A DNA stretch of 64,000 nucleotides, taken from contig JANZKA010000003.1 of assembly GCA_025060975.1 (NCBI GenBank), forward strand, positions 1,101 to 65,100, written 5' to 3'. Positions 15,765 to 34,391 of the stretch are shown in pieces; the stretch's first letter is position 1, and each line of letters begins with the position of its first letter. The position numbers and the translations under genes are program-made. Source of the DNA: Candidatus Culexarchaeum nevadense (GTDB lineage: Archaea > Thermoproteota > Methanomethylicia > Culexarchaeales > Culexarchaeaceae). Under the pieces are notes generated by a model that saw nothing but the letters and a program-made list of their open reading frames with translations, had not been told where the DNA came from and ran no database searches.

Positions 15765-16304
15765 TTGAATAATGAAGGCAAGTATAAGGGGCGCATGAAA
15801 TTGACTGATGGAATCTGTATATATTGTGGTAGATTAGCTGACGGGAATATATGCGATAAATGTCTTTCAGAGAGGAATATTGAAAGATTGAAGAAGGAAG
15901 TTTTATTTAAAGTTGAGGGTAGAGTTAAGTTGAATGAATTTAAGAAGTTCATACTGATATCCATAGCTAGACACAACCTATCAGTTTTAGAGCAACATTT
16001 CAATCAAAGAAACCTCTACCCAGAAATTTCTGGGAGAATATGGTTGAATGCCAATAGTAAGAGTGTTGTGGGAAGCTTTGAAATACATAGTGGTGAAATT
16101 GTGGATATAGTTAAAGCAGATGTTGTACATCAAATAACATATAAGAGTAGAAGTAAACATACAGTTTTGAAGTGGAAGGCAATATATAAAAGTGAAGGGA
16201 TAATGAGTGGAGTTGCCACAACACATGCACTTAAAAACTTGTACGATGCTGGTATAGATATAAATAAGCTGAAAATAGAGAGTGTAAAGTTAGATTTGAC
16301 TTAG
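15765..16304 (+). CDS. hypothetical protein with N-terminal Zn-ribbon (CIYCG...CDKC)
   Basis: ORF with a four-Cys ribbon. No family recognised. Confidence 0.3.
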   Translation: MNNEGKYKGRMKLTDGICIYCGRLADGNICDKCLSERNIERLKKEVLFKVEGRVKLNEFKKFILISIARHNLSVLEQHFNQRNLYPEISGRIWLNANSKSVVGSFEIHSGEIVDIVKADVVHQITYKSRSKHTVLKWKAIYKSEGIMSGVATTHALKNLYDAGIDINKLKIESVKLDLT

Positions 16305-17789
16305 AAATGATACTAGAAGATCCATGAGAATTCTCGGGTATATTCCGAGGAGAACAGTGAAGAAGACTAGCACCATCATTGGAGCTAAAACGAGGATTGA
16401 AGGTTCATGAACCTCCTCCAATTCATCCTTCAAAGGACCAAAGAAAACTCTCCTAATAGTCCACAGGGCATAACCAGCCGTCAATACACTACCTACAAGT
16501 CCAAGTGCAACTACAATAAGCCTCATAGCATCATGAGATTCTATAGCTCCATGGAAAGCTCCAGTAAAGATCATCCACTCACTTTGAAAACCATTTAATG
16601 GTGGCGTCCCAGCAATACCCAAAAACCCTATTAAAGCTGCAACCGCAGTTAAAGGCATCTTCCTAGCTAAACCACCAAATTTCGAAATACTCCTTAAACC
16701 ATGAGTTTCAAGCATCAATGCTCCAGCAACCATGAAGAGGACAGCTTTACATGTCCCATGACTAACATAATGATACATTGCTCCACCAACCCCAACGGGA
16801 TCTGCACTTGAAAGTCCCAGTAATATGTACCCCATCTGAGAAGCACTAGAATATGCTAGTAGCCTCTTAATATCATCTTGTGCAAGGGCCATGGCTCCAG
16901 CATAAACCATCGTTATAATGGCTAATGCACTTAAAGCTAAGCTAAATGAACCCCAAAGATCTGGAAATGCTGAGTAAATTATCCTTACAGTTGCATATCC
17001 ACCAAGTCCAATCATTGCTGGTGATAATAGTGCACTTATGGGTGTTGGAGCTTCTGCATGTGCATCTGGAAGCCATGTGTGTAATGGGACTATAGCCATC
17101 TTAACAGCAAAACCGAAAAACATTGCCACAACAGCCCACTTCAAATATTCACCGGGATGTGTAAAGCGACTAAGAGAAGCAATTAATGGGAGTTCGAAGG
17201 TTCCATATATTGAGTACAAAGTTAATATTCCTGCAAGTAATCCAAGTGCACCTACATGTGTATAAATGAAGTATTTCAATGCAATTTTCTCCCTCTCACC
17301 ATAACCCCAAATGTTTATCAAAGCCCATGATGGTAGCAACATAAGCTCCCAGAAGAAGTAGAATTGAATGAGGTTTGTGGATAAAGCTGTTCCAATCATC
17401 CCTAAAGCGTAAAGTATATATAAAGCGTAGTAAGCAGCATGTTGAGCTTTATCTTCTCCTATATGATGCTCCATGTAGGGCATTGAATATATCGATACTA
17501 CAGCACACAACAATGTAACTGTGAATATTATGGGTAAACTTAAACCATCAACTAGAAAGCCGAAGTTTAAACCTATAGATGGCACTAAGGGTATGAAGAA
17601 GAGCACTGGACCCATTGAAGAGACTATTGGTATGAGCATTAGTGAAGCTATGAATGAGTATAGTAGGGGGATAAATGCAATCCAACCACATTTACTTCCA
17701 ATCCACCTACCAACAATGTATGTTATTGGTAGAAAGATGGACAAGATCACTATGATTGAGAAGGCTAAACCCTCAGCGAACATCAACAC
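16290..17789 (-). CDS. complex-I-type antiporter-like subunit (NuoN/NuoM/MrpD family)
   Basis: About 14 TM helices and proton-pumping antiporter family motifs (e.g. WLPDAH, GF..K). 499 aa. Confidence 0.75.
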   Translation of the reverse strand: MLMFAEGLAFSIIVILSIFLPITYIVGRWIGSKCGWIAFIPLLYSFIASLMLIPIVSSMGPVLFFIPLVPSIGLNFGFLVDGLSLPIIFTVTLLCAVVSIYSMPYMEHHIGEDKAQHAAYYALYILYALGMIGTALSTNLIQFYFFWELMLLPSWALINIWGYGEREKIALKYFIYTHVGALGLLAGILTLYSIYGTFELPLIASLSRFTHPGEYLKWAVVAMFFGFAVKMAIVPLHTWLPDAHAEAPTPISALLSPAMIGLGGYATVRIIYSAFPDLWGSFSLALSALAIITMVYAGAMALAQDDIKRLLAYSSASQMGYILLGLSSADPVGVGGAMYHYVSHGTCKAVLFMVAGALMLETHGLRSISKFGGLARKMPLTAVAALIGFLGIAGTPPLNGFQSEWMIFTGAFHGAIESHDAMRLIVVALGLVGSVLTAGYALWTIRRVFFGPLKDELEEVHEPSILVLAPMMVLVFFTVLLGIYPRILMDLLVSFLSQI

Positions 17790-17851
17790 ACCTCCACGTC
17801 AAATTCGTAACATTAATGTTATAACTATATACAGTATAAAACTTTTATGAT

Positions 17852-19282
17852 TTAAAAGACCGTATTGTGCAGTATTTCATTCACAACATTAGATTTAACT
17901 TCCCCAATAACATAATGTATAAATTCATAGAGACGCTCAGATATTACGCTAGATCTAAGTGCATTATCAAGAATCTCTAAATCCAGTACTTTAATTTCAC
18001 AATTCGGTTTAATACATACATCTACTGCTAAATCAATATACCTCAATCTGCCAGGATAGATTTCCACAGGAGTATTTATGTTCACGTAAGCTCCAATAAA
18101 TTTGCCATCACTAGAATAGTATTTTGAAACATAATACCAATCACCAAATCTTATTGTAGTTAAAATCTTATCCCCAACTTTCCTAGCAACATTTAAACCA
18201 TCATAGATACCTGGAGATTTAACTCTCCTAACAATTTCCAGTCCACCATCAAAAACTCTAACAAATTCAATATTGCCGAGCAGTACAACTTCACCATTAA
18301 GTTTAACGTGCTCCAAGAACTTTATACTTCCAATAAACTTACGTTTAAAATGTTCAAGCTCAGAAACCATGCTCTCAACATTAACCCCAAGTTTCATTGC
18401 CTCCTCAATTTTGTCAACGAGATTAGACTGCAATTTACCGAGAGATTTGAAGTAGTGATGTGAACTCACAGTTGGAGTAACCTTCCTCCTAATATCATCT
18501 AAAACAATTTTGGAATCATGGGGGAATAATACGTTCATAAGCGAGTACCCTTCAACCAGTAAGCTCCAAACAGGGGAATTCTGCAAAGAACTCTGCAATT
18601 CCTCATATTTGCGAATTAAATTTGAAATCTCATTTAAAATATCCTCCTTAGATGCACTTTTAAATGAAGACCTAAATATTACACCGAACCCTTCTGGGAG
18701 TATATCATAGTAGGATTTCAGATCATCATCCACAACACCTTTAATACGAAGCCTCCTACTAAGCTTCACCCCCTCACCTCTAAATAGAACTACATGTTCC
18801 CCAGCCAACCCTATACGTGTAGTCAATATAGGTTTACCAAAAACCACTGAAATCTTATCCACTTGAACAATAACTTCATCACCAATCTTTAAAGATTCAT
18901 CATGAAGTTTTAAAGTCCCAATAAGCCCATCCTCTATTGAGACGTATGCAATCCCTTTAACTTTGTCAATAGCTTCAACTCTACCCTTATAAATTCCCCT
19001 AACACTATATGATTCAACATTTAAAATTGCATCAAAAAGATATTTATGTATAATCTTCCTAATTTCATCCACAAGCTTCCTTGAAGCAAGAATGTGAACC
19101 CCATACTTATCCTCACGATCAAAAACATCAATATCGTAAGGCATAAACTCAGCTTCTTCATCAATATTAAACCTATCCTCAGCTATCTTTGATGGTTGAA
19201 CAACCCTATAACCTTCATCAATAAAAATCTTTGAGAGAGCAGTAGAATATATCCCTCTAACTCTAACTCTAATGGGATTCAT
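17852..19282 (-). CDS. FAU-1-type RNA-binding protein / RNase E/G-like ribonuclease
   Basis: The N-terminus VRVRGIYSTALSKIFIDEGYRVVQPS closely resembles archaeal FAU-1 N-termini. About 475 aa with an S1-like region. The call rests on recalled family features, not a search. Confidence 0.5.
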   Translation of the reverse strand: MNPIRVRVRGIYSTALSKIFIDEGYRVVQPSKIAEDRFNIDEEAEFMPYDIDVFDREDKYGVHILASRKLVDEIRKIIHKYLFDAILNVESYSVRGIYKGRVEAIDKVKGIAYVSIEDGLIGTLKLHDESLKIGDEVIVQVDKISVVFGKPILTTRIGLAGEHVVLFRGEGVKLSRRLRIKGVVDDDLKSYYDILPEGFGVIFRSSFKSASKEDILNEISNLIRKYEELQSSLQNSPVWSLLVEGYSLMNVLFPHDSKIVLDDIRRKVTPTVSSHHYFKSLGKLQSNLVDKIEEAMKLGVNVESMVSELEHFKRKFIGSIKFLEHVKLNGEVVLLGNIEFVRVFDGGLEIVRRVKSPGIYDGLNVARKVGDKILTTIRFGDWYYVSKYYSSDGKFIGAYVNINTPVEIYPGRLRYIDLAVDVCIKPNCEIKVLDLEILDNALRSSVISERLYEFIHYVIGEVKSNVVNEILHNTVF

Positions 19283-19408
19283 GACGCTAAATCACCCATA
19301 CCATCAAACCTAAATATAAGTGGCTTTGACCCCCCATATCTCAATATTAGAATTATCTAACTCCACTAATTAAGATAGAGCTATAAAAAGTTATAAGATT
19401 TAATGAAC

Positions 19409-21574
19409 TCAGAATATCCTAAATATTATGAGGATTATTAGCAATATTATACCTAAAACCATTCCCATAATGTTAAATGATGAAACGCCAGTTTGAATTC
19501 TCCTAAAAGCTTGGGAAAACGATGCAAAGGCATATGCAATCGTATAGTTTAATCCATCCAAAACAGGTTTCTCAAAGTATCTATAGACTACACCACTAAG
19601 CTTTACAATGGAGTTAGCAAGAATGTAATTGAATGCATCAATAACAGCCTTCTCAAAATTCCTAAATAGAATCAAACTTCCATTTATCAGAGAATAGACG
19701 AATAGACGATAATACGTTGGATTAATATACCATCTATTGTAGAGGAAATTGTATAACCCCTTCAAACCATGTTTCTCCACAAACTCTGCAGGATCCACTT
19801 TTCTAGATATGTAAAGGTAATATGCAGGTAAACCTCCAATCACCAACATACAAGCAGTAATGGTTGTTGTAATCAATTGCATGGGAATACCACTATGAGA
19901 TTCCACTGCACCATAAACCATAATCGAAAACTTGACTTCATGATGTAATATGTGCATTGATGGTTCAAGGAATTCATGCATGAAATGCTCAAATAATGGA
20001 CCTACAAAGCCTAATACAATCGTGGCAGCAGCCAATATAGTGTATGGAACCCACATAACCTTTGAAACTTCATGTACATGATGACCTTCATGCTCAAGCT
20101 CCTCCAAATGCTCACTTTTAGATCCAAGGAAAGTTATTGCAATCATACGTAGACTATAGAAGAATGTTATTGCAGCCGTAACTGCTGCTAAAGCCAACAA
20201 AAAGTATTGCCCAGAAATCATGCATGCTGTGAAAACAACCTCTTTACTCCAGAAACCACTTAATGGAGGTATACCTGAAAGAGATAATGCACCTACAAGC
20301 ATCGTAGCGAAGGTTATTGGCATATCCCTCCTAATACCACCCATATCAAACATATTGGTACTCTCACATGCATGTATAACTGCTCCAGCAGCCATAAATA
20401 GGAGAGCTTTAAATATTGCATGACTAGCTAGATGGAATATACCTGCCACAAATCCAGTGGATGGATCCATAGCTAATCCACCAGCACCTAAACCAAGCAT
20501 CATATAACCAATCTGCGAAATAGTTGAGTAAGCTAAAACCTTCTTCAACTCCCTACTAACCGTAGCTTGAGTAGCAGCTAAAAAGGCTGTAAATGCACCA
20601 ATCCAAGCCACAGTTAAGAAGAAGTTTTGGCGAGCTTGAAGGATTAAGCCTTCAATTGCGAGTCCATGAACATGCTCCACCGCAACTTCAAAACCATAGT
20701 ATATTGTTGGGAATAAGCGGGCTACAAGATATACTCCAGCCTTAACCATTGTTGCAGCATGTATTAAAGCTGAAACTGATGTTGGACCAGCCATAGCTTC
20801 TGGAAGCCATTCATGAAGTGGGAATTGTGCAGATTTACCAATAGGACCCCCAAACAATAATATTGTAACCGGAACTATTAAGCCAAGCTTGGCAAGCTCA
20901 ATTATCCACTCATGATTTACCTGAAGATCAAGGAAATTGAAAGTTCCAGATATGGAGAATATTATGAATGAAGCTATCATTAGACATATATCACCAATCT
21001 TTGTGGTTATAAATGCCTTCATACCAGCATGTGATGGTGGAATATCACCAATCCAACGCTTCCTCTCATCACTATAGTAGAATCCTATAAGCTGATAACT
21101 GCATAATCCAACACCTTCCCATCCAAATAACATTTGTAAAATGTTATCTGACATAACTAGTAGGAGCATGTTTCCAATAAAGAAGTTCATGAAGAACCAG
21201 TATCTAGTTAACCCCTCTTCACCATGCATATAACCCAAACTATAAACCATAATTAGAAATGATATCCAGGCCACGATGAGCCCCATAAAAGTACTCAGGG
21301 GATCTATAAGCACCCCCACATCAAGGTAGAAGCCCGGAACAACAAACCATTTAACACGCCAATCAACTGGGGGATGAACATAACCTACTCCGGGAACATA
21401 AACTTTACCAGACAATACATATGAAAAATTGAGTGTAGCCATTAAAGCCGCTAGAAGTGAACATAAAACTGCAAAGTAATCCCTAACTTTTTCACCTAAA
21501 CGAGCTATTAAAGGTGTAAGTATCGCACCAACAATTGGTATTATCCAAACAAGCCAAGGGGAATAGTACAACAT
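19409..21574 (-). CDS. complex-I-type large antiporter subunit, NuoL-like (with long C-terminal extension)
   Basis: 721 aa, NuoL/MrpA-like TM core plus a C-terminal amphipathic/TM extension. Confidence 0.85.
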   Translation of the reverse strand: MLYYSPWLVWIIPIVGAILTPLIARLGEKVRDYFAVLCSLLAALMATLNFSYVLSGKVYVPGVGYVHPPVDWRVKWFVVPGFYLDVGVLIDPLSTFMGLIVAWISFLIMVYSLGYMHGEEGLTRYWFFMNFFIGNMLLLVMSDNILQMLFGWEGVGLCSYQLIGFYYSDERKRWIGDIPPSHAGMKAFITTKIGDICLMIASFIIFSISGTFNFLDLQVNHEWIIELAKLGLIVPVTILLFGGPIGKSAQFPLHEWLPEAMAGPTSVSALIHAATMVKAGVYLVARLFPTIYYGFEVAVEHVHGLAIEGLILQARQNFFLTVAWIGAFTAFLAATQATVSRELKKVLAYSTISQIGYMMLGLGAGGLAMDPSTGFVAGIFHLASHAIFKALLFMAAGAVIHACESTNMFDMGGIRRDMPITFATMLVGALSLSGIPPLSGFWSKEVVFTACMISGQYFLLALAAVTAAITFFYSLRMIAITFLGSKSEHLEELEHEGHHVHEVSKVMWVPYTILAAATIVLGFVGPLFEHFMHEFLEPSMHILHHEVKFSIMVYGAVESHSGIPMQLITTTITACMLVIGGLPAYYLYISRKVDPAEFVEKHGLKGLYNFLYNRWYINPTYYRLFVYSLINGSLILFRNFEKAVIDAFNYILANSIVKLSGVVYRYFEKPVLDGLNYTIAYAFASFSQAFRRIQTGVSSFNIMGMVLGIILLIILIIFRIF

Positions 21575-23296: not shown

Positions 23297-23317
23297 AATT
23301 GTTGTCATGTTAACAGC

Positions 23318-24430: not shown

Positions 24431-24496
24431 ACGCCATATACCCCCAGCATTGAAGCTATACTATCATGATATAAACAACTTATAAATCTTATGAGG

Positions 24497-26198: not shown

Positions 26199-27707
26199 TC
26201 AGAACCTTAACACACTTGTAATATACACTAACCTTTGGAAAGTAAAGTGAGCCGCCAACTCAGCAACATAAGATAATGGTTGAGGCCATACACCGAAAAT
26301 TATGCACAGCAATGATAGGATTACAAGTGATGATGTGATTAATGGTGGAGATTCATGGGCTTTCATAACGGCTTCAATTGGCTTCCTAAACAATACTTGT
26401 ATTACACGAACATAATACACGACTCCAACCGCGCTATTCAATAACCCTATAAATGTTAATAGATATGCTTGAGCATCTATCGCCGCAGCAAATATCAAGT
26501 ATTTACTTATAAAACCATTCAAGAAGGGCATTCCAGCTAGGGATAAGAGGGCTATTGCAAAGGATACACCAGTAACTGGCATCCTCCTACCAATACCAGT
26601 AAGCTCATCAATATTCCTAGTTCCAAGCACATGTATTATTGATCCAGCACAAAGGAATGCCAATCCCTTCATCAATGCATGATTGAAGAAGTGAACTATA
26701 CCTGCTAAGAGGCCAAACTCAGTTCCAAGTGATAACGCCAATACCAGGTAGCCTATCTGCGCTATACTGGAATAAGCCAATAAACGCTTAATATCCTTTT
26801 GAACTAAGGCGAGGATATTCCCAACAGTCATAGTCAAAACTGAGAGAAGAGCAAGCATGGGTCTAAAATCCACAGTGGGTATTGCTATTAGAGTATATGA
26901 TGCTCTTATAATGGCGTAAACCCCAGTCTTTATAACCACACCTGAAAGCATAGCACTTATGGGGCTTGGAGCAGCTGGATGAGCATCTGGAAGCCATGAA
27001 TGAAATGGAACTATTGCCGCTTTAACCCCAAATCCAACTAAAAGCAATATGAAAATGGCGTACAATAGTATCGATGGGCTAGCACCAGTTAACGATGATG
27101 CTATACGTGCAAAACTTAGGGAGCCAGTTAAACCATAGAGGAGGGACATGGAGAACAATACTAGCGCTGAACCAGCAGCACTCATTAGCAAATATTTGAA
27201 ACCAGCCTCCACAGGCTCCCATAAATGCTTCCTAAATCCAACAAGACAATAGGAGGATATGCTCATCAACTCCCAGAATACGTATAGTGTTAGGAAATCT
27301 CCTGCAAGCGTCACACCAACCATACCACAAACCATTAATAAGAGTAGTGAATAGTATGAGGGGAGACCAGTATCATGAGACATATAATCTATGGAATGCA
27401 ATGTAGATATCAATCCTAGAAATATGAATCCAATGGAAAATGTAAAGCTAAGCCAATCCAAAACAATGAATCCAGCAACATACTCGCCAATACTGGGATA
27501 CAATGAGACTACTATAACTGGATTTTTGTTCAATAAGTTCATAAGCCTAAAGCAAGCCATAAAGGATATTATGAAGCCAAATAACGCCCATGCACTAACT
27601 AGATTTCTAACTCTACCCCTCTCACATATAAAACCTATTATAGGTGTGAGGATACCAAATAATGCTAATATTATCATTGGGGATAGAATCTCCATCAATT
27701 CTACCAC
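26199..27707 (-). CDS. complex-I-type antiporter-like subunit (NuoM-like)
   Basis: 502 aa, 14 TM helices. Overlaps the nuoK-like stop by 7 nt, suggesting translational coupling. Confidence 0.8.
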   Translation of the reverse strand: MVELMEILSPMIILALFGILTPIIGFICERGRVRNLVSAWALFGFIISFMACFRLMNLLNKNPVIVVSLYPSIGEYVAGFIVLDWLSFTFSIGFIFLGLISTLHSIDYMSHDTGLPSYYSLLLLMVCGMVGVTLAGDFLTLYVFWELMSISSYCLVGFRKHLWEPVEAGFKYLLMSAAGSALVLFSMSLLYGLTGSLSFARIASSLTGASPSILLYAIFILLLVGFGVKAAIVPFHSWLPDAHPAAPSPISAMLSGVVIKTGVYAIIRASYTLIAIPTVDFRPMLALLSVLTMTVGNILALVQKDIKRLLAYSSIAQIGYLVLALSLGTEFGLLAGIVHFFNHALMKGLAFLCAGSIIHVLGTRNIDELTGIGRRMPVTGVSFAIALLSLAGMPFLNGFISKYLIFAAAIDAQAYLLTFIGLLNSAVGVVYYVRVIQVLFRKPIEAVMKAHESPPLITSSLVILSLLCIIFGVWPQPLSYVAELAAHFTFQRLVYITSVLRF

Positions 27708-28018
27708 CTCAACCTCCTAAGCTCCCTAATATCAAGAGTCTTATAATGCCTATAAGCATTAATTACGAATGCAAGTGCAATACCAATTAAACATGCTTCA
27801 ACAGATATGGCTATTATGGCAGTAACATGAAGTATTGGGTCTACAAAGCCATACATCCTAAAATACGCGAAGTTAACCAAGCTGAGTATTGCTGAACTGA
27901 ACATTATCTCGAGAGCCATAACCATTTTGATCATATTCCTCTTAACCATTAAACCATATATGCCCACGGCCAATAATACTCCAGAAGTTGCTATGAAAGT
28001 GTATGGTTCAATGGGCAC
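27701..28018 (-). CDS. NuoK-like (MrpC/MbhG-like) small membrane subunit
   Basis: 105 aa, 3 TM helices with a conserved Glu in TM2. Overlaps the upstream gene by 11 nt. Confidence 0.7.
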   Translation of the reverse strand: MPIEPYTFIATSGVLLAVGIYGLMVKRNMIKMVMALEIMFSSAILSLVNFAYFRMYGFVDPILHVTAIIAISVEACLIGIALAFVINAYRHYKTLDIRELRRLRW

Positions 28019-28295
28019 TATGCCTCACCTCTTCACGTAAAAGTGCAATAACACCCATAGCAGAAGCAAACAATACGATTGCCTGTATCAAAACATCTAT
28101 TCCACAATACCCCCACAACAAGTCACTAATATTCATTGCAAGATTATAAAATGACTCATCCGGTTTAACCAGTATCCTCGGAGCTTCATCATAAGCAAAT
28201 AAACCAACACCTGAAAAACCATAAACAAGTAATTGAGCTAAAAGGAAGGCTAATAGCAATCCCAAAAACAATCCAAAAATGTCAATAGCCTTCAA
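28008..28295 (-). CDS. NuoJ-like C-terminal half (MbhE-like small membrane subunit)
   Basis: TTG start at 28295 immediately after the TAA of the preceding ORF in the same frame. Hydrophobic NuoJ C-terminal-type sequence. Confidence 0.5.
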   Translation of the reverse strand: MKAIDIFGLFLGLLLAFLLAQLLVYGFSGVGLFAYDEAPRILVKPDESFYNLAMNISDLLWGYCGIDVLIQAIVLFASAMGVIALLREEVRHSAH

Positions 28296-28556
28296 TTAAT
28301 CCACCTCCACCTTTCCAGTCAACATTAAAGCTATTATGAATAAAACTGTGACTGCACCAGCTAAAACAGCCAACTGAAAAACCCCGACTAGAGGTGCTGA
28401 TAGATAAAAGAAGGCTAATGCTAAAACCACACTAAAAAGACATAGAGCCATAATGGAATGCATAATCCTCTTAAATTCCAAAGTTAAAACAGCCAAAACA
28501 ACAGCTGAAACCCCCAAAACTACACTGAGAATATCAACACTCAAACCCATCACCAA
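28296..28556 (-). CDS. NuoJ-like N-terminal half (MbhD-like small membrane subunit)
   Basis: 86 aa, 3 TM helices. Ends in a TAA followed directly by the in-frame TTG of the next gene. Confidence 0.5.
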   Translation of the reverse strand: MVMGLSVDILSVVLGVSAVVLAVLTLEFKRIMHSIMALCLFSVVLALAFFYLSAPLVGVFQLAVLAGAVTVLFIIALMLTGKVEVD

Positions 28557-29343: not shown

Positions 29344-29346
29344 TTG

Positions 29347-30630
29347 CTAACGATTAATGAAATCCCTCAAATCCATAGAAACCCCAAACATGTTTATCTT
29401 CCCATAAACACCATCAAATCCAGGATTTATAGAATACTTACCATACCTCAAACTCTTAATGTATGATGCTATGACAGGATTAGATGCCTTCGCAATATCA
29501 TCTATTGAAGCATCAAGTAAGACATTGAATTCAGAACCAAATTTTGATACTAAATTAGCATATAAACTCCAAACTTTACCACTATTAAGCTTTGAAATAT
29601 CATCTTCACTAATACCCATACTGAAAGCTATGATAGTCTGTAGAGGTAGAACTTTAATGAATGGTATAGCGTTCTCTGGTTTAAACCCCCTCGGTCTATC
29701 AGCAAGTTCCTCAACCCTATCTTCAACCCCCTTAGTAAGCTTCCTACCACAAACTGGACATATATAATTAAGCTTCCTAGCCTCTTCCGGAGATAATGGA
29801 CCAACATTACAATTCCTATGACCAGACCAATGATACTTCCCATAAGCTGGATCAACCTCAATGGTCATTAGGAAACGCTTTGCATCTCTAGACTTTATGG
29901 CATCTATAAGCTCTAAATACTCCATTCTATCTAAATTAAATAGGCATGCCTCCCTACCAAGTCTAAATGGGTATGGAGAGTGGCTATCTGAGAAGCTTAA
30001 AATTGAGAATCTATGTAGTTGGCTAACCCGCCAATTCATTTCAGGATCACTACTTAAACCAGTTTCAATAGCATATATCTTGTCAACCATATCACCATAG
30101 CAATCCTCAATTCTATCAACACCACTAAAAGATCCAAACAAACTCCACCAAGGAGTCCAAATGTGGGCTGGAAATATAAAGCATGACTGCTCAACACCCA
30201 AAACTAAATCCACAAGTTCAGATGGATGCATATTGAAGACTGGACGACCATTAGATTCCACATCACCATAACGTGACAGGACATCTGAAAGCTGCTCAGC
30301 AACTTCAAGACTTGGCATTAAAATGACGTGATGAACCCTCCTAGATTTACCATTAAATTCGAAGACAGTTCCAACTTCACATTCAACAACAAATAGCACT
30401 TCAGGGTTAAGCCTATATGCATAGAATCCTCCACCAACATGTATAAGGTCATCCTTCAACTCCCTAAGCCAACGTGGATTTAAACAATCACCAGTTCCGA
30501 GGATCTTCAACCCTTTAATAAGAGCGTATGATACGAGGGTGGGGATATTCATCTTTTCACTTGATCCGCCACTATACTTAGAGTGTATGTGGAGATCAGC
30601 GTAAACCTTCATTCCAATAAACACTTCCAA
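29347..30630 (-). CDS. PHP-domain nuclease, endonuclease Q (EndoQ / TIGR00375)-like, with C-terminal C4 Zn finger
   Basis: The N-terminal ADLHIHSKYSGG...KGLKILGTGDCLNP PHP metal-binding start and CPVCGRK...C near the C-terminus match the EndoQ architecture (~425 aa). 427 aa. The call rests on recalled family features, not a search. Confidence 0.5.
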   Translation of the reverse strand: MEVFIGMKVYADLHIHSKYSGGSSEKMNIPTLVSYALIKGLKILGTGDCLNPRWLRELKDDLIHVGGGFYAYRLNPEVLFVVECEVGTVFEFNGKSRRVHHVILMPSLEVAEQLSDVLSRYGDVESNGRPVFNMHPSELVDLVLGVEQSCFIFPAHIWTPWWSLFGSFSGVDRIEDCYGDMVDKIYAIETGLSSDPEMNWRVSQLHRFSILSFSDSHSPYPFRLGREACLFNLDRMEYLELIDAIKSRDAKRFLMTIEVDPAYGKYHWSGHRNCNVGPLSPEEARKLNYICPVCGRKLTKGVEDRVEELADRPRGFKPENAIPFIKVLPLQTIIAFSMGISEDDISKLNSGKVWSLYANLVSKFGSEFNVLLDASIDDIAKASNPVIASYIKSLRYGKYSINPGFDGVYGKINMFGVSMDLRDFINR

Positions 30631-30671
30631 AATAATGTTTAAAATTTATACAGATAACCTTTACCAGAAAC

Positions 30672-31016
30672 CTACCCAGCACTATACACAAGTGTTTTAC
30701 GATCAGGTGATGCTAACTCATAGAATTTCGTCAAGCGTATAGCTGCCCTTGGACATATCCTCTCACACTGCCCACAGAATATACATTTATCAAGGTAGAA
30801 CACTGGAATCCTACCATTAACATTCTTGTCTGATGGAACTAGCTCAATAGCTAGTGCTGGACATTCACGGGCACATAAACCACAACCAACACATCTATCA
30901 ACATAAAATTCATGTTTCCCCCTATACCTCTCAGCAATTGGAGTTTTCTCAAATGGATACTTAACGGTTACTGGACGTTTGAATAGATGTTTAAATACTT
31001 CACGTATCATAGCCAT
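30672..31016 (-). CDS. NuoI-like 2x[4Fe-4S] ferredoxin subunit
   Basis: Two CxxCxxCxxxCP motifs (CVGCGLCARECP, CIFCGQCERICP). The true start is probably the ATG at 31016 or 31010 (ATGA overlap with the nuoH-like stop), not the upstream ATG at 31088 in the ORF track. Confidence 0.85.
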   Translation of the reverse strand: MAMIREVFKHLFKRPVTVKYPFEKTPIAERYRGKHEFYVDRCVGCGLCARECPALAIELVPSDKNVNGRIPVFYLDKCIFCGQCERICPRAAIRLTKFYELASPDRKTLVYSAG

Positions 31017-31972
31017 CTTAAACCAACCTCCACAAACCTGGTTAAAATTAATTGTAGAATTGATAATGGTATTAGATACCTCCAGCAACCTGAAACCATT
31101 TGATCAATCCTAAACCTTGCAAATAGAGATCTAATGTAAGAGCTTAATAACACTATGAAGATCATTTTCAATACAAACCATACCACTGGAGGCAGGATCG
31201 GACCACTACCACCAGCAAGGAATATTGCTGTGGCTAAACCTGAACAAAATACGAGCCTCAAATCCTCTGCAAAACGTAGAAATGCAAGTTTTGGACCACA
31301 ATACTCAGTAAGCCATCCAGCTACAATTTCACTTTCAGCTTCAGGTATATCGAAGGGGATCCTTTCAAGTTCAGCTTGCATTGAAATTATGAAGACTATG
31401 AAACCTATTGGTTGAAGCAAAATCATGGGTACAGGTTGATTCATAGATATGTAGGTTAATGATGTTGAACCAACATACACAGCAACAGAAGCTACTGAAA
31501 TGAACATTGGAATCTCATAAGCTAAGAATTGCAGTATAGCCCTAGCAGCTCCAACAGTACTAAACCTATTTGTGGAAGCCCAACCTGCAATAAAGACTAT
31601 TATGGTATATAATGTCATTAAAGTTAATAATAGCACTACATCACCCTCAAAGGATGATAGAATCGGACTTCCATCCAATGGGAGATATAGAGAAGCAAAG
31701 AATGGGATTGCCACTGCAAATATAGGTGCATTATTGAATATCAGGGTATCAACATATCTGGGCGTTATATCCTCCTTACCCATAAGCTTAATGAAATCTG
31801 CTATTGGTTGCAAAATCCCACTTGGACCAGCATATAATGGGCCTATTCTATTCTGAAACCTAGCATAAGCCTTCCTATCAATCCATTCAAATAAGAATGC
31901 AAGTATTGAGAGGAATAGTAAGCCAGGGAATATGAAGATCCTAATCAATGTGAAAACATTATCCATAGACAC
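31007..31972 (-). CDS. NuoH-like (MbhM/EchB-like) membrane subunit
   Basis: 321 aa, 8 TM helices with NuoH family signatures (FNNAPIFAVAIPFF..., E-rich loops). Confidence 0.85.
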   Translation of the reverse strand: MSMDNVFTLIRIFIFPGLLFLSILAFLFEWIDRKAYARFQNRIGPLYAGPSGILQPIADFIKLMGKEDITPRYVDTLIFNNAPIFAVAIPFFASLYLPLDGSPILSSFEGDVVLLLTLMTLYTIIVFIAGWASTNRFSTVGAARAILQFLAYEIPMFISVASVAVYVGSTSLTYISMNQPVPMILLQPIGFIVFIISMQAELERIPFDIPEAESEIVAGWLTEYCGPKLAFLRFAEDLRLVFCSGLATAIFLAGGSGPILPPVVWFVLKMIFIVLLSSYIRSLFARFRIDQMVSGCWRYLIPLSILQLILTRFVEVGLRWL

Positions 31973-33147
31973 TACACCCCCACACCATAATACTTACGAC
32001 TATAATTACGAAGCTCATCATAACTCCAAACCCACTTCTCACCCCTATTTGGATCAATGAATATAACCCTCTCAGTACAGCAATAACATGGATCTATGCT
32101 GGCAACTATTGCAGGTATATCTGCAATATGATACCCCTTCAACATCTCACAAAGGGACGGTATATTAGCCATAGTTGGAGTTCTCATTTTAGCTCTATAT
32201 GGAGTTTCCTTACCATCAGATTTCACATAATGCAATAATTCTCCCCTGGGAGCTTCAACCCTAGCAGTTGCTTCACCAACTGGTGGAATACGCTTAACCT
32301 TAACATTTATAGGTCCAGGCCTCATCTTATCCAAAGCTTGCCTAACAACACTAATGGATTCCAGAGTTTCATCAACCCTAACCATAGCTCTACCCCAAAC
32401 ATCACATGTATCATATGTTATTAAATTGAAATCTATAGTATCATATAAAGTGTATGGATCGTCAAATCTAACATCACTTTTAACATTAGATGCTCTAGCC
32501 GTTGGACCTACAGCACATAAATCTAAAGCCTTCTCAGTACTAAGAACCCCAACATCCACAGTTCTAGCTCTAATACTTGGATCCTCCTCCAAGACAGATT
32601 TATAATACTTAGTTCTTTCCTCAAGGTAATCCAAATTCCTCTTAATTATTGGAATCATTTCCGGAGTTATATCGTAAACTACTCCGCCAATACAATTCAT
32701 TGATGGTGTAACCCTATTACCACTAATCATCTCCACAAGATCCATAACCTTCTCCCTATCCCTCCAAACATACATGAAAAGTGTGTGGAAACCCAACTCC
32801 ATACCCAAAATTCCAATCCATAAAAGGTGACTGTGAATTCTGTTAAGCTCATTAATTATTATCCTAAGGTATTTAGCTCTCTCAGGGACATCAATATCAT
32901 AAAGCTTCTCCACAGCCAAACAGTAACATGTTGTATGTGGAACATTACATATACCACAAATCCTCTCAGCTAAGAATATCCCCTGAACCCATGTCCTAAG
33001 CTCCATACCCTTCTCAATACCCCTATGTACAAATCCCAGTCTAGGCTTAACATCAACTATAACCTCACCATCCAAAATGAAGTTGAATTGGAAAGCCTCC
33101 TTAATAGCTGGATGCTGTGGACCTATTGGAACTTGATAATAGCTCAA
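31972..33147 (-). CDS. NuoD homologue that retains [NiFe] ligands: group-4 [NiFe]-hydrogenase large-subunit-like
   Basis: N-terminal L1 motif ERICGICNVPH (RxCGxCxxxH) and C-terminal DPCYCCTER (DPCxxC), both intact. Bona fide NuoD/FpoD have lost these cysteines. PIGPQHP and HRGIEK core motifs are present. The start is either the ATG at 33207 (59-nt overlap with the nuoC-like gene) or, more likely, the TTG at 33147 just after the nuoC-like stop. Confidence 0.8.
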   Translation of the reverse strand: MSYYQVPIGPQHPAIKEAFQFNFILDGEVIVDVKPRLGFVHRGIEKGMELRTWVQGIFLAERICGICNVPHTTCYCLAVEKLYDIDVPERAKYLRIIINELNRIHSHLLWIGILGMELGFHTLFMYVWRDREKVMDLVEMISGNRVTPSMNCIGGVVYDITPEMIPIIKRNLDYLEERTKYYKSVLEEDPSIRARTVDVGVLSTEKALDLCAVGPTARASNVKSDVRFDDPYTLYDTIDFNLITYDTCDVWGRAMVRVDETLESISVVRQALDKMRPGPINVKVKRIPPVGEATARVEAPRGELLHYVKSDGKETPYRAKMRTPTMANIPSLCEMLKGYHIADIPAIVASIDPCYCCTERVIFIDPNRGEKWVWSYDELRNYSRKYYGVGV

Positions 33148-33148
33148 C

Positions 33149-33619
33149 CTACCCCACCTCCACCTTATAATCCTTCCTAAGTGGATAAACACCCTCAGGC
33201 CAATCATCTGGCAATATTAGTCTTTCAAGAGATGGATGACCATCAAAAATTACCCCCAAAAGATCATGAACTTCACGTTCATATAAAACAGCTCCAGGCA
33301 ATAACGGAACTATTGAGGGGATGTGTGGATTATCTCTAGAAATCCTAACTTTAACGTTTACCAGAACCCTCCGATCCAATGGAGATAAGTGATAGATCAA
33401 TTCAATAGAATCCCCAAGATCAGTTCCAGTTATAGTTGTTATATGCTTCAAATAGTATCTATCCTTCAAGTAACGTATAACATCATGAAGTATACCAGTA
33501 TCAACACTTACAAATACACTCCTAGCACCATCAAACTTGTAATCCAGAATCTTATTTGGAAATGCATTCATAAGATCCTTAACAATAAACTCCATATTGA
33601 AAGTTGACAATACATCCAC
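33149..33619 (-). CDS. NuoC-like (30-kDa / MbhK-like) subunit
   Basis: 156 aa, conserved ERE.HDL.G..F..HP motif. Confidence 0.8.
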   Translation of the reverse strand: MDVLSTFNMEFIVKDLMNAFPNKILDYKFDGARSVFVSVDTGILHDVIRYLKDRYYLKHITTITGTDLGDSIELIYHLSPLDRRVLVNVKVRISRDNPHIPSIVPLLPGAVLYEREVHDLLGVIFDGHPSLERLILPDDWPEGVYPLRKDYKVEVG

Positions 33620-33622
33620 CTC

Positions 33623-34048
33623 CTATCCAGACTTAAGTTTAGCTATAAGTTTTGCAACTGCATCTATCACCGCTTCTGGTCTAACGGGGCATCCTGGAAC
33701 ATACATGGTTACAGGTATAACCTTATCTATACCCCCCAAAACATTATAGCAACCCCAATAAACTCCACCCGAAGTAGCACATGTTCCAGCTGCAATAACA
33801 AATTTTGGGTCAGGCATCTGTTCATATATCCTCTTAAGCCTTGGAGCAACCTGCCTACTAACAGCCCCAGTAACAATCAATACATCAGCATGCCTTGGAC
33901 TCCCCTTCAAAAGTATCCCAAACCTCTCCACATCATACTTAGGGGCTAAAGCAGCTAAAACCTCAATATCACATGCATTACAAGCACCAGTACACATGTA
34001 CAATATCCACGGACTTCTAATCCTAGACCAAGCTAGAATTGAAGGCAT
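33623..34048 (-). CDS. NuoB-like (20-kDa / hydrogenase small-subunit-like) [4Fe-4S] subunit
   Basis: CTGACNACDIE ... C ... GCP cysteine pattern. 141 aa. Confidence 0.85.
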   Translation of the reverse strand: MPSILAWSRIRSPWILYMCTGACNACDIEVLAALAPKYDVERFGILLKGSPRHADVLIVTGAVSRQVAPRLKRIYEQMPDPKFVIAAGTCATSGGVYWGCYNVLGGIDKVIPVTMYVPGCPVRPEAVIDAVAKLIAKLKSG

Positions 34049-34052
34049 AAAT

Positions 34053-34391
34053 TCACCTCCTCGGAAGAATAGTTATTGCTGAAAGAACCACCGCCAAATA
34101 TATTAAGACGTAAATTATGTTTGCATTTAAAGATAAAAGCAATATGAAAGCCATCACATCAAATATGGTGAAATACAATGCATACTTGTAAAGTTGAACA
34201 TTCAACTGAATCTTCTCAGGTGGAAATCTATCAGTACCCTCACCACAAGCATAAGGCTCTAAACTCAACTCACTACGCCTAGGTGGAGGGGAAAGCCTCT
34301 TAAGAAATCTAAAGGAAACATAGCTTAACAGTAAGATTACAATGAAAATCATCAATGGTGAGAAGGCAATCTCAAACCACAACTTCAGCAC
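34053..34391 (-). CDS. NuoA-like small membrane subunit
   Basis: EPYACGEG matches the NuoA PYECG signature. 3 TM helices, 112 aa. Confidence 0.7.
   Translation of the reverse strand: MLKLWFEIAFSPLMIFIVILLLSYVSFRFLKRLSPPPRRSELSLEPYACGEGTDRFPPEKIQLNVQLYKYALYFTIFDVMAFILLLSLNANIIYVLIYLAVVLSAITILPRR

What the first reader, a model, noticed from the sequence alone, without database searches (positions are those of the whole stretch)
16290..34391. Complex-I-ordered 11-subunit locus whose NuoD homologue retains a complete [NiFe] site: a group-4 hydrogenase in Nuo clothing
The minus-strand genes follow complex-I order (A-B-C-D-H-I ... J(split)-K-M ... L ... N), with three large antiporter-like subunits and a NuoA with the PYxCG signature. 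The NuoD homologue (31972..33207) keeps ERICGICNVPH (RxCGxCxxxH) and a C-terminal DPCYCCTER (DPCxxC). All four Ni-Fe cysteine ligands are therefore present, whereas genuine NuoD/FpoD subunits have lost them (ERLDY...). The C-terminal motif is close to E. coli HycE (DPCYSCTDR). This indicates an energy-converting [NiFe] hydrogenase with a complex-I-like membrane arm. It could be a group 4g-type crenarchaeal enzyme or an evolutionary intermediate between Mbh/Ech and Nuo. Such enzymes are poorly characterised. No hyp/hyc maturation or endopeptidase genes lie in the window.
Basis: partly seen in the sequence, partly recalled or inferred. Interest (0 to 1): 0.75.

Follow-up and report, generated by a model that had tools for sequence, protein, structure and literature searches.

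The report
Known complex-I-shaped [NiFe] hydrogenase (Hfo-type)
This hot-spring archaeon (Candidatus Culexarchaeum nevadense) encodes a hydrogen-handling [NiFe] enzyme built like respiratory complex I; it is real and relevant to how complex I evolved, but both the enzyme type and this gene are already published and annotated.

Summary
Twelve minus-strand genes (16290-34391) encode the 11 core complex-I subunit types. The NuoD homologue has RICGICNVPH and DPCYCCTER, and these align with the [NiFe] ligands of P. furiosus MbhL. All 120 nearest protein clusters keep both motifs. The NuoB homologue has the hydrogenase-type CxxC. A 31-residue HycE-like C-terminal extension is present. Relatives have hypCDEF and hycI next to the cluster. 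The D subunit falls on the hydrogenase side of a split with 97% bootstrap support, away from NuoD. NuoH, NuoL and NuoM are complex-I-like, whereas B, D, J1/J2 and the subunit after K are MBH-like.

It is not new. The D protein is identical to MCS7368464.1, "nickel-dependent hydrogenase large subunit", of Ca. Culexarchaeum nevadense GBS-70-058. Kohtz et al. 2022 list its orthologues as the Culexarchaeia group 4g hydrogenase and list hypA/C/D/E/F and hycI in this genome. Loh et al. 2021 described the architecture as Hfo, an Fpo-like 11-subunit hydrogenase.

Most likely function: a reversible ferredoxin:H+ oxidoreductase coupled to ion translocation. Verdict: interpretation supported, already known, biochemically uncharacterised.

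The parts
34053..34391 (-). Subunit A (NuoA/FpoA-like, 112 aa) with EPYACGE loop motif
   Evidence: Pfam PF00507 scores 30.5 bits against a cut-off of 23.3. PDB hits are weak and only to NuoA/NdhC. Sequence.
33623..34048 (-). Subunit B, hydrogenase small subunit type (141 aa). Inferred [4Fe-4S] ligands are C23, C26, C90 and C120.
   Evidence: PF01058. Best PDB hit is MbhJ at 159.7 bits, against about 130 for complex I/NDH-1. The motif is TGACNACDIE (CxxC), as in MbhJ, HycG and HyfI, not the CC of E. coli NuoB.
33149..33619 (-). Subunit C (NuoC/FpoC-like, 156 aa)
   Evidence: PF00329 at 118 bits. NCBIfam FpoC/NuoC models match, all below their cut-offs.
31972..33147 (-). Subunit D, the [NiFe] large subunit (391 aa from TTG 33147; the ORF extends to 33207). 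L1 is R62-H71 (RICGICNVPH) and L2 is D352-R360 (DPCYCCTER). A 31-aa C-terminal extension follows.
   Evidence: Identical to NCBI MCS7368464.1, 'nickel-dependent hydrogenase large subunit'. AF2 model has pLDDT 87.9.
31007..31972 (-). Subunit H (NuoH-like, 321 aa), complex-I type
   Evidence: PF00146 at 309 bits. PDB: E. coli NuoH 169 bits, NdhA 161, MbhM 98, HycD 63. Acidic residues and one Lys aligned to E. coli NuoH positions E157, D213, E216, E218, E220, E228 and K274 are conserved.
30672..31016 (-). Subunit I (NuoI-like 2x[4Fe-4S] ferredoxin-type, 114 aa from ATG 31016; the ORF extends to 31088)
   Evidence: Fer4 Pfam families. TIGR01971 NuoI scores 110.6 bits. Two complete CxxCxxCxxxCP motifs. 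Start inferred from 114-aa orthologues.
28296..28556 (-). Subunit J1 (N-terminal part of NuoJ; MbhD-like, 86 aa)
   Evidence: PF00499 at 36.9 bits and PF13244 MbhD at 31.3 bits.
28008..28295 (-). Subunit J2 (C-terminal part of NuoJ; MbhE-like, 95 aa)
   Evidence: No Pfam hit. The only PDB hit is MbhE (6cfw_E), E=0.0024, over residues 7-88. A gene of 72-95 aa occupies the same position in L001-L005.
27701..28018 (-). Subunit K (NuoK-like, 105 aa)
   Evidence: PF00420 at 73 bits. The Glu aligned to E. coli E36 is conserved, as E37.
26199..27707 (-). Antiporter-like subunit of NuoN/MbhH type (502 aa).
   Evidence: PDB: MbhH 285.7 bits, MbsH 213, NuoN 189, NdhB 184, E. coli NuoM 126. NCBIfam best hits are PRK08376 and NuoN TIGR01770. 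TM5 Glu, TM7 Lys and TM12 Lys are conserved. Orthologues follow K in L001-L004.
19409..21574 (-). Subunit L (NuoL/NdhF type, 721 aa) with a C-terminal extension: inferred lateral helix plus final TM
   Evidence: TIGR01974 scores 491 bits against a cut-off of 407. PF01010 covers the C-terminal part. PDB: NdhF 334 bits over residues 2-628, E. coli NuoL 282, MbhH 139. Residues aligned to E. coli E144, K229, H334, H338, K342, K399 and D400 are conserved.
16290..17789 (-). Antiporter-like subunit of NuoM type (499 aa).
   Evidence: TIGR01972 NDH_I_M scores 346.6 bits against a cut-off of 263.8. PDB: NuoM 199/175 bits and NdhD 185-190, against NuoN 122. TM12 carries Glu (E404), as in NuoM. Orthologues pair with L in L002 and L003.

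Best explanation
The locus encodes an Hfo-type enzyme: an Fpo/Nuo-like, 11-subunit energy-converting group 4 [NiFe] hydrogenase. HydDB files it in the catch-all subgroup 4g. The organism is Ca. Culexarchaeum nevadense.

Proposed mechanism. Reduced ferredoxin donates electrons to the two [4Fe-4S] clusters of subunit I. They pass through the single cluster of subunit B to a Ni-Fe centre in subunit D, held by C64, C67, C354 and C357, where protons are reduced to H2. The reaction is reversible. As in complex I, the redox step is coupled through the H/A/J/K 'heel' to three antiporter-like subunits (N, M, L, with L's lateral helix) that move H+ or Na+ across the membrane. The A-type ATP synthase then uses this gradient.

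Shown here: the subunit complement, the intact metal-ligand motifs, intact charged residues in the pump subunits, relatedness to hydrogenases rather than NuoD, and linkage to maturation genes in relatives. Inferred: ferredoxin as partner, the ion pumped, and the direction. My commitment for this fermentative hyperthermophile is net H2 evolution with ion export (about 0.55). H2 uptake driving ferredoxin reduction is the main alternative (about 0.35).

The enzyme is a mosaic. Subunits B, D, J1/J2 and N resemble P. furiosus MBH. Subunits H, L, M and A resemble complex I/NDH-1.
For: - L1 and L2 cysteines are present and aligned to MbhL's. They are invariant in relatives.
- Glu17 (391-aa numbering) aligns with MbhL Glu21 and is invariant.
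- The small subunit has the hydrogenase-type CxxC, and its best PDB hit is MbhJ.
- A 24-41-residue C-terminal extension follows L2 in all 120 relatives. It aligns with the HycE/HyfG C-terminal tails. From my own knowledge, HycI removes that tail from HycE.
- hypD, hypE, hypC, hypF and hycI are adjacent in L002. hypF, C, D, E and A are adjacent in L006. hypE is adjacent in L005.
- This genome has hycI and hypA/C/D/E/F elsewhere (PMC9723716 supplement).
- NJ tree: 97/100 bootstrap split from the Nuo clade.
- The membrane arm is complete and its key residues are conserved.
- The same 12 genes form one contiguous operon in L003.
- No NuoEFG, FpoF or FpoO domain was found in the window.
- Published assignments agree: Kohtz 2022, group 4g, Fd-oxidising and H2-evolving; Loh 2021, Hfo.
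Against: - No member of this clade has been purified or assayed (PMC7886697), so H2 chemistry, partner, ion and stoichiometry are all inferred.
- Energetics (my own estimate from textbook potentials): ferredoxin to H+ spans only about 90 mV at 1 bar H2. That pays for roughly one ion, whereas a complex-I-type arm offers about four paths. The enzyme therefore needs low H2, a lower ion ratio, or reverse operation.
- The genes are split into four blocks by unrelated genes, so co-expression is not shown.
- NCBIfam's NuoD model PRK06075 passes its cut-off (380.9 against 360).
- The fold search cannot separate HycE, MbhL and NuoD.
- The hyp genes in the genome also serve its group 3 and Ehe hydrogenases, so they are not specific evidence for this enzyme.
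Confidence: 0.85

Rival explanations
1. Same enzyme, opposite physiological direction. It takes up H2 and uses the membrane potential (several ions flowing in per 2 e-) to reduce ferredoxin for the Wood-Ljungdahl pathway and other reductive reactions. This is what Loh et al. proposed for Hfo in Bathyarchaeia.
For: Loh et al. 2021 argue this for Hfo. Culexarchaeia encode a Wood-Ljungdahl pathway. A three-antiporter arm with all key residues intact suits a high ion-per-electron ratio, which would make ferredoxin reduction feasible at low H2 (inference).
Against: Kohtz et al. 2022 model Culexarchaeia as fermentative generalists that dispose of reduced ferredoxin as H2. The genome also has group 3 hydrogenases and Hdr for H2 uptake. 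Nothing in the sequence sets the direction.
Confidence: 0.35
2. The complex has an additional redox partner encoded elsewhere: an FpoF/FrhB-like F420 module or an HdrB/C-like disulfide reductase. It would then link H2 to F420 or to a disulfide rather than, or as well as, to ferredoxin.
For: In L006 a close relative has B-C-D-I followed by an FrhB-like gene. L003 and L005 have Fer4+CCG (HdrC/B-like) genes beside the cluster. Appler et al. describe Hdr-bearing Asgard relatives. The window encodes the F420 ligase CofE at 12832-13602, and the genome has an frhB homologue.
Against: No FrhB, FpoF or CCG-domain gene lies in or next to the window's cluster, nor in L001 or L004. In this genome the HdrB-linked hydrogenase is a different complex, Ehe.
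Confidence: 0.1
3. It is a true respiratory Nuo/Fpo-like complex that reduces a membrane quinone or phenazine, and the four cysteines are a vestige.
For: NCBIfam NuoD PRK06075 passes its cut-off. JGI names the cluster members 'NADH-quinone oxidoreductase subunit D'. H, L, M and A are complex-I-like.
Against: - The cysteines are invariant across relatives down to 54% identity, which argues for selection.
- The positions of the Nqo4 quinone ligands His38 and Tyr87 (roles recalled from the literature) are Lys and Gly here (alignment).
- Subunit B has CxxC, not CC.
- The C-terminal extension and the hyp/hycI linkage.
- The 97% bootstrap split from Nuo.
- The words 'quinone' and 'respirat*' do not occur in the main text of Kohtz et al. 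2022.
Confidence: 0.03
4. The dispersed L and M genes (and possibly N) do not belong to the hydrogenase. They would form a separate Mrp-like antiporter, leaving a smaller Ech/MBH-like hydrogenase.
For: L and M are separated from the rest by ATPase genes and a FAU-1-like gene. In L002 the L-M pair is transcribed divergently.
Against: Orthologous N, L and M directly follow K in one operon in L003. No small Mrp subunits (MnhB, C, E, F or G domains) occur in the window. L carries a NuoL-type C-terminal extension that makes sense only alongside neighbouring antiporter subunits. The arrangement is conserved in L001 and L004.
Confidence: 0.05

Closest known systems
Hfo, the 'Fpo-like 11-subunit [NiFe] hydrogenase' of Bathyarchaeia subgroup 6, with Hfo-like clusters in Ca. 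Methanomethylicus mesodigestum and Pyrodictium delaneyi (Loh et al. 2021, PMC7886697)
   Same: The same 11 Nuo/Fpo core subunits. No FpoFO or NuoEFG. No MbhABCF Na+ module. L1 and L2 motifs kept in D. HydDB subgroup 4g. The D subunit is 70-77% identical to Methanomethylicota-labelled proteins and 54-58% to Bathyarchaeota proteins.
   Different: Here the cluster is broken into four blocks: ABCDHI | J1J2KN | L | M. The intervening genes are a TIGR00375-family gene plus DedA, A-ATPase genes, and a FAU-1-like gene. The order after K is N-L-M rather than L-M-N. Loh et al. favour H2 uptake; Kohtz et al. favour H2 evolution for Culexarchaeia.
'Group 4g [NiFe]-hydrogenase' of Culexarchaeia (Kohtz et al. 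2022, PMC9723716)
   Same: This is the same gene. The window's D protein is identical to MCS7368464.1 of Ca. Culexarchaeum nevadense GBS-70-058. The paper's 4g gene identifiers for two marine MAGs lie on the contigs of my orthologous loci L012 and L013.
   Different: The paper treats it as an MBH-like hydrogenase. Its main text contains no word starting with Nuo or Fpo, so it does not describe the complex-I-type 11-subunit architecture.
Asgard 'complex I-like' group 4 [NiFe] hydrogenases (Valentin-Alvarado et al. 2024, PMC11291895; Appler et al. 2024, bioRxiv 10.1101/2024.07.04.601786)
   Same: An intact NiFe site in NuoD, Nuo-like membrane subunits including an L-type subunit with a lateral helix, no NuoEFG, and co-location with ATP synthase genes. 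Asgard sequences (P0011 Baldrarchaeia; P0122 Promethearchaeota/Hodarchaeota) fall in the window's NJ clade.
   Different: [quoted passage not shown] The window has all three antiporter-like subunits and no Hdr genes.
Pyrococcus furiosus membrane-bound hydrogenase MBH (group 4d; PDB 6CFW)
   Same: Best solved-structure match for D (275 bits), B (160), the N-type subunit (286) and J2 (MbhE). Same NiFe ligands and the same CxxC small subunit.
   Different: MBH has one antiporter-like subunit plus an Mrp-type Na+ module (MbhA-C, F). MbhL ends at the L2 Arg with no extension. The window's H subunit scores far higher against NuoH than against MbhM (169 against 98 bits).
E. coli formate hydrogenlyase large subunits HycE/HyfG (group 4a; PDB 7Z0S)
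   Same: The L2 motif DPCYSCTDR is nearly identical. The C-terminal extension has a comparable length (32 aa in HycE and HyfG, 31 aa here) and similar sequence. HycE is the top Foldseek hit.
   Different: HycE is a NuoC-D fusion fed by formate dehydrogenase through HycB/F. FHL lacks NuoA, NuoJ and a NuoL with a lateral helix. HycD matches the window's H subunit only weakly (63 bits).
Respiratory complex I, Fpo and NDH-1 (11-subunit core)
   Same: The same subunit set. H, L, M and A are closest to these enzymes. The gene order A-B-C-D-H-I-J-K is shared. Pump residues are conserved.
   Different: In those enzymes NuoD/FpoD has lost the NiFe ligands and binds quinone or phenazine, and NuoB has the tandem CC motif. 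The window's D and B subunits are hydrogenase-type.

Membership tests
Group 4 (energy-converting) [NiFe] hydrogenase | L1 motif (RxCGxCxxxH) with two NiFe cysteine ligands in the large subunit | tested here: met
   RICGICNVPH at residues 62-71 (391-aa form), aligned to MbhL RMCGICSFSH. Invariant in 50 relatives.
Group 4 (energy-converting) [NiFe] hydrogenase | L2 motif (DPCxxCxxR/H) with the other two cysteine ligands | tested here: met
   DPCYCCTER at residues 352-360, aligned to MbhL DPCLSCTDR and matching HycE DPCYSCTDR. Present in all 120 nearest clusters.
Group 4 (energy-converting) [NiFe] hydrogenase | Small subunit with a single [4Fe-4S] cluster bound by a CxxC...C...C pattern, not the tandem CC of NuoB | tested here: met
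   C23, C26, C90 and C120. The motif TGACNACDIE matches those of MbhJ, HycG and HyfI, whereas E. coli NuoB has LSCCYVE.
Group 4 (energy-converting) [NiFe] hydrogenase | Large subunit groups with hydrogenases rather than NuoD/FpoD in a phylogeny | tested here: met
   NJ tree of 157 sequences over 360 columns: a 97/100 bootstrap split puts the window with MbhL, HycE and HyfG, and E. coli NuoCD and Nqo4 on the other side. Caveats: NJ only, no named FpoD reference, and the backbone inside the hydrogenases is unresolved. The ML tree of Loh et al. agrees for this family.
Group 4 (energy-converting) [NiFe] hydrogenase | Hyp maturation machinery and, where a C-terminal extension exists, a HycI-type endopeptidase | tested here: met
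   None in the window. In relatives, hypCDEF plus hycI (L002) and hypFCDEA (L006) are adjacent. The genome's own hycI and hypA/C/D/E/F are listed in the PMC9723716 supplement. A 31-aa HycE-like extension is present. Specificity for this hydrogenase is not shown.
Group 4 (energy-converting) [NiFe] hydrogenase | Ni-Fe cofactor present and H2 evolution or uptake activity | not testable with these tools
   Needs biochemistry. None of the subgroup 4g hydrogenases had been characterised as of 2021.
Hfo (Fpo-like 11-subunit hydrogenase; Loh et al. 2021) | All 11 Nuo/Fpo core subunits (A, B, C, D, H, I, J, K, L, M, N) encoded | tested here: met
   Twelve genes, with J split in two.
Hfo (Fpo-like 11-subunit hydrogenase; Loh et al. 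2021) | No electron-input module (NuoEFG or FpoFO) and no Mrp-type Na+ module (MbhABCF) in the cluster | tested here: met
   No such Pfam domains in any locus ORF of at least 70 aa, nor in any window ORF of at least 100 aa. Smaller ORFs outside the locus were not scanned.
Hfo (Fpo-like 11-subunit hydrogenase; Loh et al. 2021) | D subunit related to the Bathyarchaeia / Methanomethylicus 4g lineage | tested here: met
   70-77% identity to Methanomethylicota-labelled proteins and 54-58% to Bathyarchaeota proteins. NJ clade of 18 with 59% bootstrap support.
Hfo (Fpo-like 11-subunit hydrogenase; Loh et al. 2021) | Gene cluster organised like fpo/nuo: one contiguous operon, A-B-C-D-H-I-J-K-L-M-N | tested here: not met
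   The window has four blocks separated by unrelated genes, and the order after K is N-L-M. The relative L003 is contiguous but also has the order K-N-L-M. I treat this as a variant in arrangement, not in composition.
Respiratory complex I / Fpo / NDH-1 | NuoD/FpoD without NiFe ligands, forming the quinone/phenazine site (His38 and Tyr87 in T. thermophilus numbering; roles recalled from the literature) | tested here: not met
   All four cysteines are present. Lys and Gly occupy the positions aligned to Nqo4 His38 and Tyr87.
Respiratory complex I / Fpo / NDH-1 | NuoB with tandem-cysteine (CC) ligation of cluster N2 | tested here: not met
   CxxC instead of CC.
Respiratory complex I / Fpo / NDH-1 | Complex-I-type membrane arm: NuoH, A, J, K plus three antiporter-like subunits, with NuoL carrying a lateral helix | tested here: met
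   The lateral helix is inferred from PF01010, the NdhF alignment to residue 628, and an amphipathic C-terminal stretch followed by a hydrophobic end. It was not modelled.
MBH (group 4d, Pyrococcus type) | Single antiporter-like subunit plus the Mrp-derived Na+ module MbhA-C, F | tested here: not met
   Three antiporter-like subunits, and no small Mrp subunit domains.
MBS/Mbx (sulfane-sulfur reductase) | Large subunit that has lost part of the NiFe cysteine set (my recollection of MbsL; not checked here) | tested here: not met
   All four cysteines are retained. MbsL (6u8y_L) scores 196 bits, against 275 for MbhL.

The most novel reading that the evidence does not exclude
The most novel reading still open concerns energetics and organisation, not identity. 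The enzyme has a full complex-I-type arm (three intact antiporter-like subunits plus the heel) on a redox span of only about 0.1-0.25 V. Its genes are interleaved with the membrane-sector genes of the A-type ATP synthase (atpI, atpK, atpC), and this arrangement is conserved in L001 and L004. Together these could mean one of two things. The enzyme may run with a variable or reduced ion:electron ratio. Alternatively it may run mainly in reverse and be co-regulated or co-assembled with the ATP synthase as one energy-converting unit. A related point: the mosaic (MBH-like B, D, J1/J2 and N; complex-I-like H, L, M and A) and the K-N-L-M order would show that the L-M pair was added as a module to an MBH-like core before the NiFe site was lost.
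Probability: 0.15. Interest if true: 0.55.

Novelty: already known. Interest (0 to 1): 0.28.

Why it matters
Hfo-type enzymes are the closest living analogues of the presumed ancestor of respiratory complex I: a hydrogenase active site on a complete complex-I proton-pumping arm. A structure or an ion/electron stoichiometry for one of them would test how the coupling machinery worked before quinone chemistry arose. It would also show how much energy can be conserved from the small ferredoxin/H2 redox span. For this window, however, the practical lesson is about annotation. JGI calls these proteins 'NADH-quinone oxidoreductase subunit D', and one NCBIfam NuoD model passes its cut-off. NCBI and two published papers already recognise the gene as a [NiFe] hydrogenase. 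The finding is correct but adds nothing new beyond small corrections: the order is K-N-L-M, and the cluster is fragmented.

Tried and rejected
- AF2 model of subunit D (pLDDT 87.9) with Foldseek against the PDB. HycE, many complex I NuoD chains and MbhL all give TM about 0.82-0.85, so fold does not discriminate hydrogenase from NuoD. Not used as evidence.
- NJ tree. Only the hydrogenase/Nuo split (97%) and the shallow clades are supported. The backbone among group 4 lineages has 0-5% support, so I make no claim about which hydrogenase lineage is sister to Nuo or to this clade. No ML program was available, and no named FpoD, EchE or CooH references could be fetched.
- The TIGR00375/MJ0043_C-family gene (29347-30630) and DedA (28669-29343) were considered as accessory subunits because they lie inside the cluster. 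Rejected. In L003 the MJ0043_C gene lies outside the contiguous operon on the other strand. In L002 both are absent.
- HdrB/C as a partner was considered. No such genes lie near the window's cluster.
- Literature search for 'Hfo' or 'Fpo-like hydrogenase' after 2021 returned only Loh et al. plus noise, so I found no biochemical or structural follow-up in the held library.
- The genome-contig scan did not return the source genome itself (best hit 87%). The exact-sequence look-up did identify it.
- A Pfam call with a bad coordinate range failed. Three paper look-ups failed on term syntax.

Full report
**What is in the sequence**

Between 16290 and 34391, the minus strand carries twelve genes whose products match the eleven core subunit types of complex I:
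- A: 34053-34391
- B: 33623-34048
- C: 33149-33619
- D: 31972-33147
- H: 31007-31972
- I: 30672-31016
- J in two pieces: 28296-28556 and 28008-28295
- K: 27701-28018
- Three antiporter-like proteins: 26199-27707, 19409-21574 and 16290-17789

Unrelated genes lie between these blocks:
- A TIGR00375/MJ0043_C-family gene and a DedA/VTT gene, between I and J.
- A-type ATPase genes I, c and AC39 plus two unknown ORFs, between the first antiporter-like gene and L.
- A FAU-1/RNase E/G-like gene, between L and the last antiporter-like gene.

The D product contains RICGICNVPH and DPCYCCTER. Relatives and the deposited protein are 391 aa and start at TTG 33147.

**Is the NiFe site real?**

- In the phmmer alignment to P. 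furiosus MbhL (6CFW chain L), the best solved-structure match at 275 bits, the four cysteines lie on MbhL's RMCGICSFSH and DPCLSCTDR.
- Glu17 (391-aa numbering) lies on MbhL Glu21.
- T. thermophilus Nqo4 (255 bits) has RMDYLHSFAH and DPVM at the same places.
- All 120 nearest 90%-identity clusters keep both motifs.
- In a 50-sequence alignment reaching down to 54% identity, E17, R62, C64, G65, C67, H71, D352, P353, C354, C357 and R360 are invariant.
- The B subunit has TGACNACDIE, the CxxC pattern of MbhJ, HycG and HyfI, not the tandem CC of NuoB. Its best PDB hit is MbhJ (159.7 bits, against about 130 for complex I).
- After the L2 arginine the protein continues for 31 residues (VIFIDPNRGEKWVWSYDELRNYSRKYYGVGV). 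This stretch aligns with the 32-residue C-terminal tails of E. coli HycE and HyfG. All 120 relatives carry a 24-41-residue tail there. From my own knowledge, HycI removes this tail from HycE.

**Phylogeny**

I combined the 150 best representatives from the 50%-identity library with 15 close relatives. As references I added E. coli HycE, HyfG and NuoCD, plus MbhL and Nqo4 taken from the alignments. I then built an NJ tree with 100 bootstraps (157 sequences, 360 columns).

A split with 97% support separates two sides:
- 120 sequences, including the window, MbhL, HycE and HyfG. Most have both motifs.
- 37 sequences, all lacking both motifs, including E. coli NuoCD and Nqo4.

The window sits in a clade of 18 (59% support) with Methanomethylicota-labelled, Thermoprotei, Bathyarchaeota and Asgard sequences. 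The deeper backbone is unresolved. I had no ML program and no named FpoD reference.

**Genomic context in relatives**

- L004 (Culexarchaeia MAG YNP-WB-040) and L001 share the window's fragmented layout, including the ATPase genes.
- L003 has all twelve genes as one operon, A-B-C-D-H-I-J-J'-K followed by proteins of 518, 691 and 503 aa.
- L002 (Thermoprotei) has A through the first antiporter-like gene, a divergent L+M pair, and immediately beside them hypD, hypE, hypC, hypF and hycI.
- L006 (Bathyarchaeota) has hypF, C, D, E, A and an Mrp/ParA-like gene directly upstream of B-C-D-I.
- L005 (Baldrarchaeia) has hypE next to I.

This linkage to maturation genes is independent support for a working hydrogenase. 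The window itself has no hyp or hycI gene.

**The membrane arm**

| Subunit | Best matches (bits) |
|---|---|
| H | E. coli NuoH 169, NdhA 161, MbhM 98, HycD 63 |
| 721-aa protein (L) | NuoL/NdhF type: TIGR01974 491 against a cut-off of 407; NdhF 334 over residues 2-628; has the NuoL-type C-terminal region |
| 499-aa protein | NuoM: TIGR01972 346.6 against a cut-off of 263.8 |
| 502-aa protein (after K) | MbhH 286, MbsH 213, then NuoN/NdhB 184-189 |

- The 502-aa protein has Lys at the TM12 position, as in NuoN. The 499-aa protein has Glu there, as in NuoM.
The order is K-N-L-M, as in L003.
- J2 matches only MbhE, and J1 matches both the NuoJ and MbhD Pfam families.
- Key charged residues of L, M, N, K and H are conserved.
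- The enzyme is thus a mosaic. B, D, J1/J2 and N are MBH-like. H, L, M and A are complex-I/NDH-like.

**Identity of the organism and prior knowledge**

- The 391-aa D protein is identical to NCBI MCS7368464.1, 'nickel-dependent hydrogenase large subunit', from Ca. [quoted passage not shown] Its reported GC of 37.0% fits the window.
- Kohtz et al. 2022 (PMC9723716) assign each Culexarchaeia MAG a 'group 4g [NiFe]-hydrogenase'. They propose that it oxidises ferredoxin, evolves H2 and exports ions.
- Their gene identifiers for two marine MAGs lie on the very contigs of my orthologous loci L012 and L013.
- Their table lists hycI, hypA, hypC, hypD, hypE and hypF under the prefix Ga0197143. I assign that prefix to GBS-70-058 by column order and elimination.
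- Loh et al. [quoted passage not shown] They noted Hfo-like clusters in Ca. Methanomethylicus and Pyrodictium delaneyi, and argued that Hfo closes the gap between hydrogenases and complex I.
- Comparable 'complex I-like' group 4 hydrogenases have been described in Asgard archaea.
- Subgroup 4g is acknowledged to be polyphyletic.

**Mechanism**

Most likely, reduced ferredoxin delivers electrons through the two clusters of I and the one cluster of B to the Ni-Fe site in D. There protons are reduced to H2, reversibly. The reaction is coupled through H/A/J/K to N, M and L, which translocate H+ or Na+.

- The composition and the intact motifs are shown here.
- The partner, the ion, the stoichiometry and the direction are inferred.

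My own estimate from textbook potentials is as follows. Ferredoxin (about -500 mV) to H+/H2 (-414 mV at 1 bar) yields about 17 kJ per 2 e-. That pays for roughly one ion at 150 mV, whereas a complex-I arm offers about four paths. So the enzyme needs low H2, a lower ion ratio, or reverse operation (H2 plus gradient driving ferredoxin reduction, as Loh et al. propose). I favour H2 evolution in this fermentative organism (about 0.55) over uptake (about 0.35).

**Verdict**

The kind of enzyme and this very gene are already published and annotated. What remains open is biochemical, not genomic.

Noticed in passing
window 22247-26140: Membrane-sector genes of the A-type ATP synthase are wedged between the N-type and L genes of the hydrogenase: subunit I at 24497-26140 (-), proteolipid c at 23981-24430 (-), an unknown 220-aa ORF at 23318-23980 (-), and AC39/subunit C at 22247-23296 (+). 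The same layout occurs in L001 and L004. The catalytic ATPase subunits A and B are not in the window.
   Followed up: partly
window 28669-30630: A TIGR00375/MJ0043_C-family gene (29347-30630, -) and a DedA/VTT-domain gene (28669-29343, +) split subunit I from subunit J. This is conserved in L001 and L004. In L003 the MJ0043_C gene lies just downstream of the intact operon, next to ProRS. This looks like an old neighbourhood rather than an accessory subunit.
   Followed up: partly
window 17852-19282: A FAU-1-like protein (DUF402 plus an RNase E/G domain, 476 aa) lies between the L and M-type genes.
   Followed up: no
L006 355-10570: A Bathyarchaeota relative has hypF-hypC-hypD, hypE, hypA and an Mrp/ParA-like gene directly followed by B-C-D-I and a 517-aa FrhB/CBS-domain protein. 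It has no membrane subunits at all. This appears to be a soluble, possibly F420-linked, offshoot of the same hydrogenase lineage.
   Followed up: no
L003 7119-8416; L005 5388-8512: HdrC/HdrB-like genes (Fer4 plus CCG domains) sit beside the hydrogenase cluster in two relatives. In the Baldrarchaeia locus they sit together with GcvH and a lipoate-protein ligase. This suggests disulfide-reductase-linked variants like those reported for Asgard archaea.
   Followed up: no
window 50826-52529: A 1.7-kb stretch has no ORF of 100 aa or more. It holds a single tRNA-Arg (CCG) at 52023-52100, and nothing else reached any Rfam gathering score.
   Followed up: partly
window 39035-42145: Four consecutive small ORFs without Pfam matches (39035-41009, -) lie next to an archaeal type IV prepilin peptidase (41342-42145, +). 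The same set occurs in L004. They may be pilin- or archaellin-like substrates.
   Followed up: no
window 198-1709, 12832-13602, 53466-54278: Cofactor and C1-related genes are scattered in the window: an HMPTM-type radical SAM enzyme, the F420 gamma-glutamyl ligase CofE, and a FocA-type formate/nitrite transporter. They fit the H4MPT/F420-using metabolism reported for Culexarchaeia.
   Followed up: no
window 11262-12851: A 529-aa ORF with no Pfam match lies between a TrmI/GCD14-type tRNA methyltransferase and CofE.
   Followed up: no
window 31972-33147: Annotation conflict. JGI names members of this protein cluster 'NADH-quinone oxidoreductase subunit D', and the NCBIfam NuoD model PRK06075 passes its cut-off (380.9 against 360). 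NCBI names the same proteins 'nickel-dependent hydrogenase large subunit'.
   Followed up: yes
L015 8185-9333: A Planctomycetota MAG encodes a 46%-identical homologue of the D subunit. Kosmotoga and Neomoorella proteins also appear among the closer representatives. Related large subunits therefore occur in bacteria.
   Followed up: no
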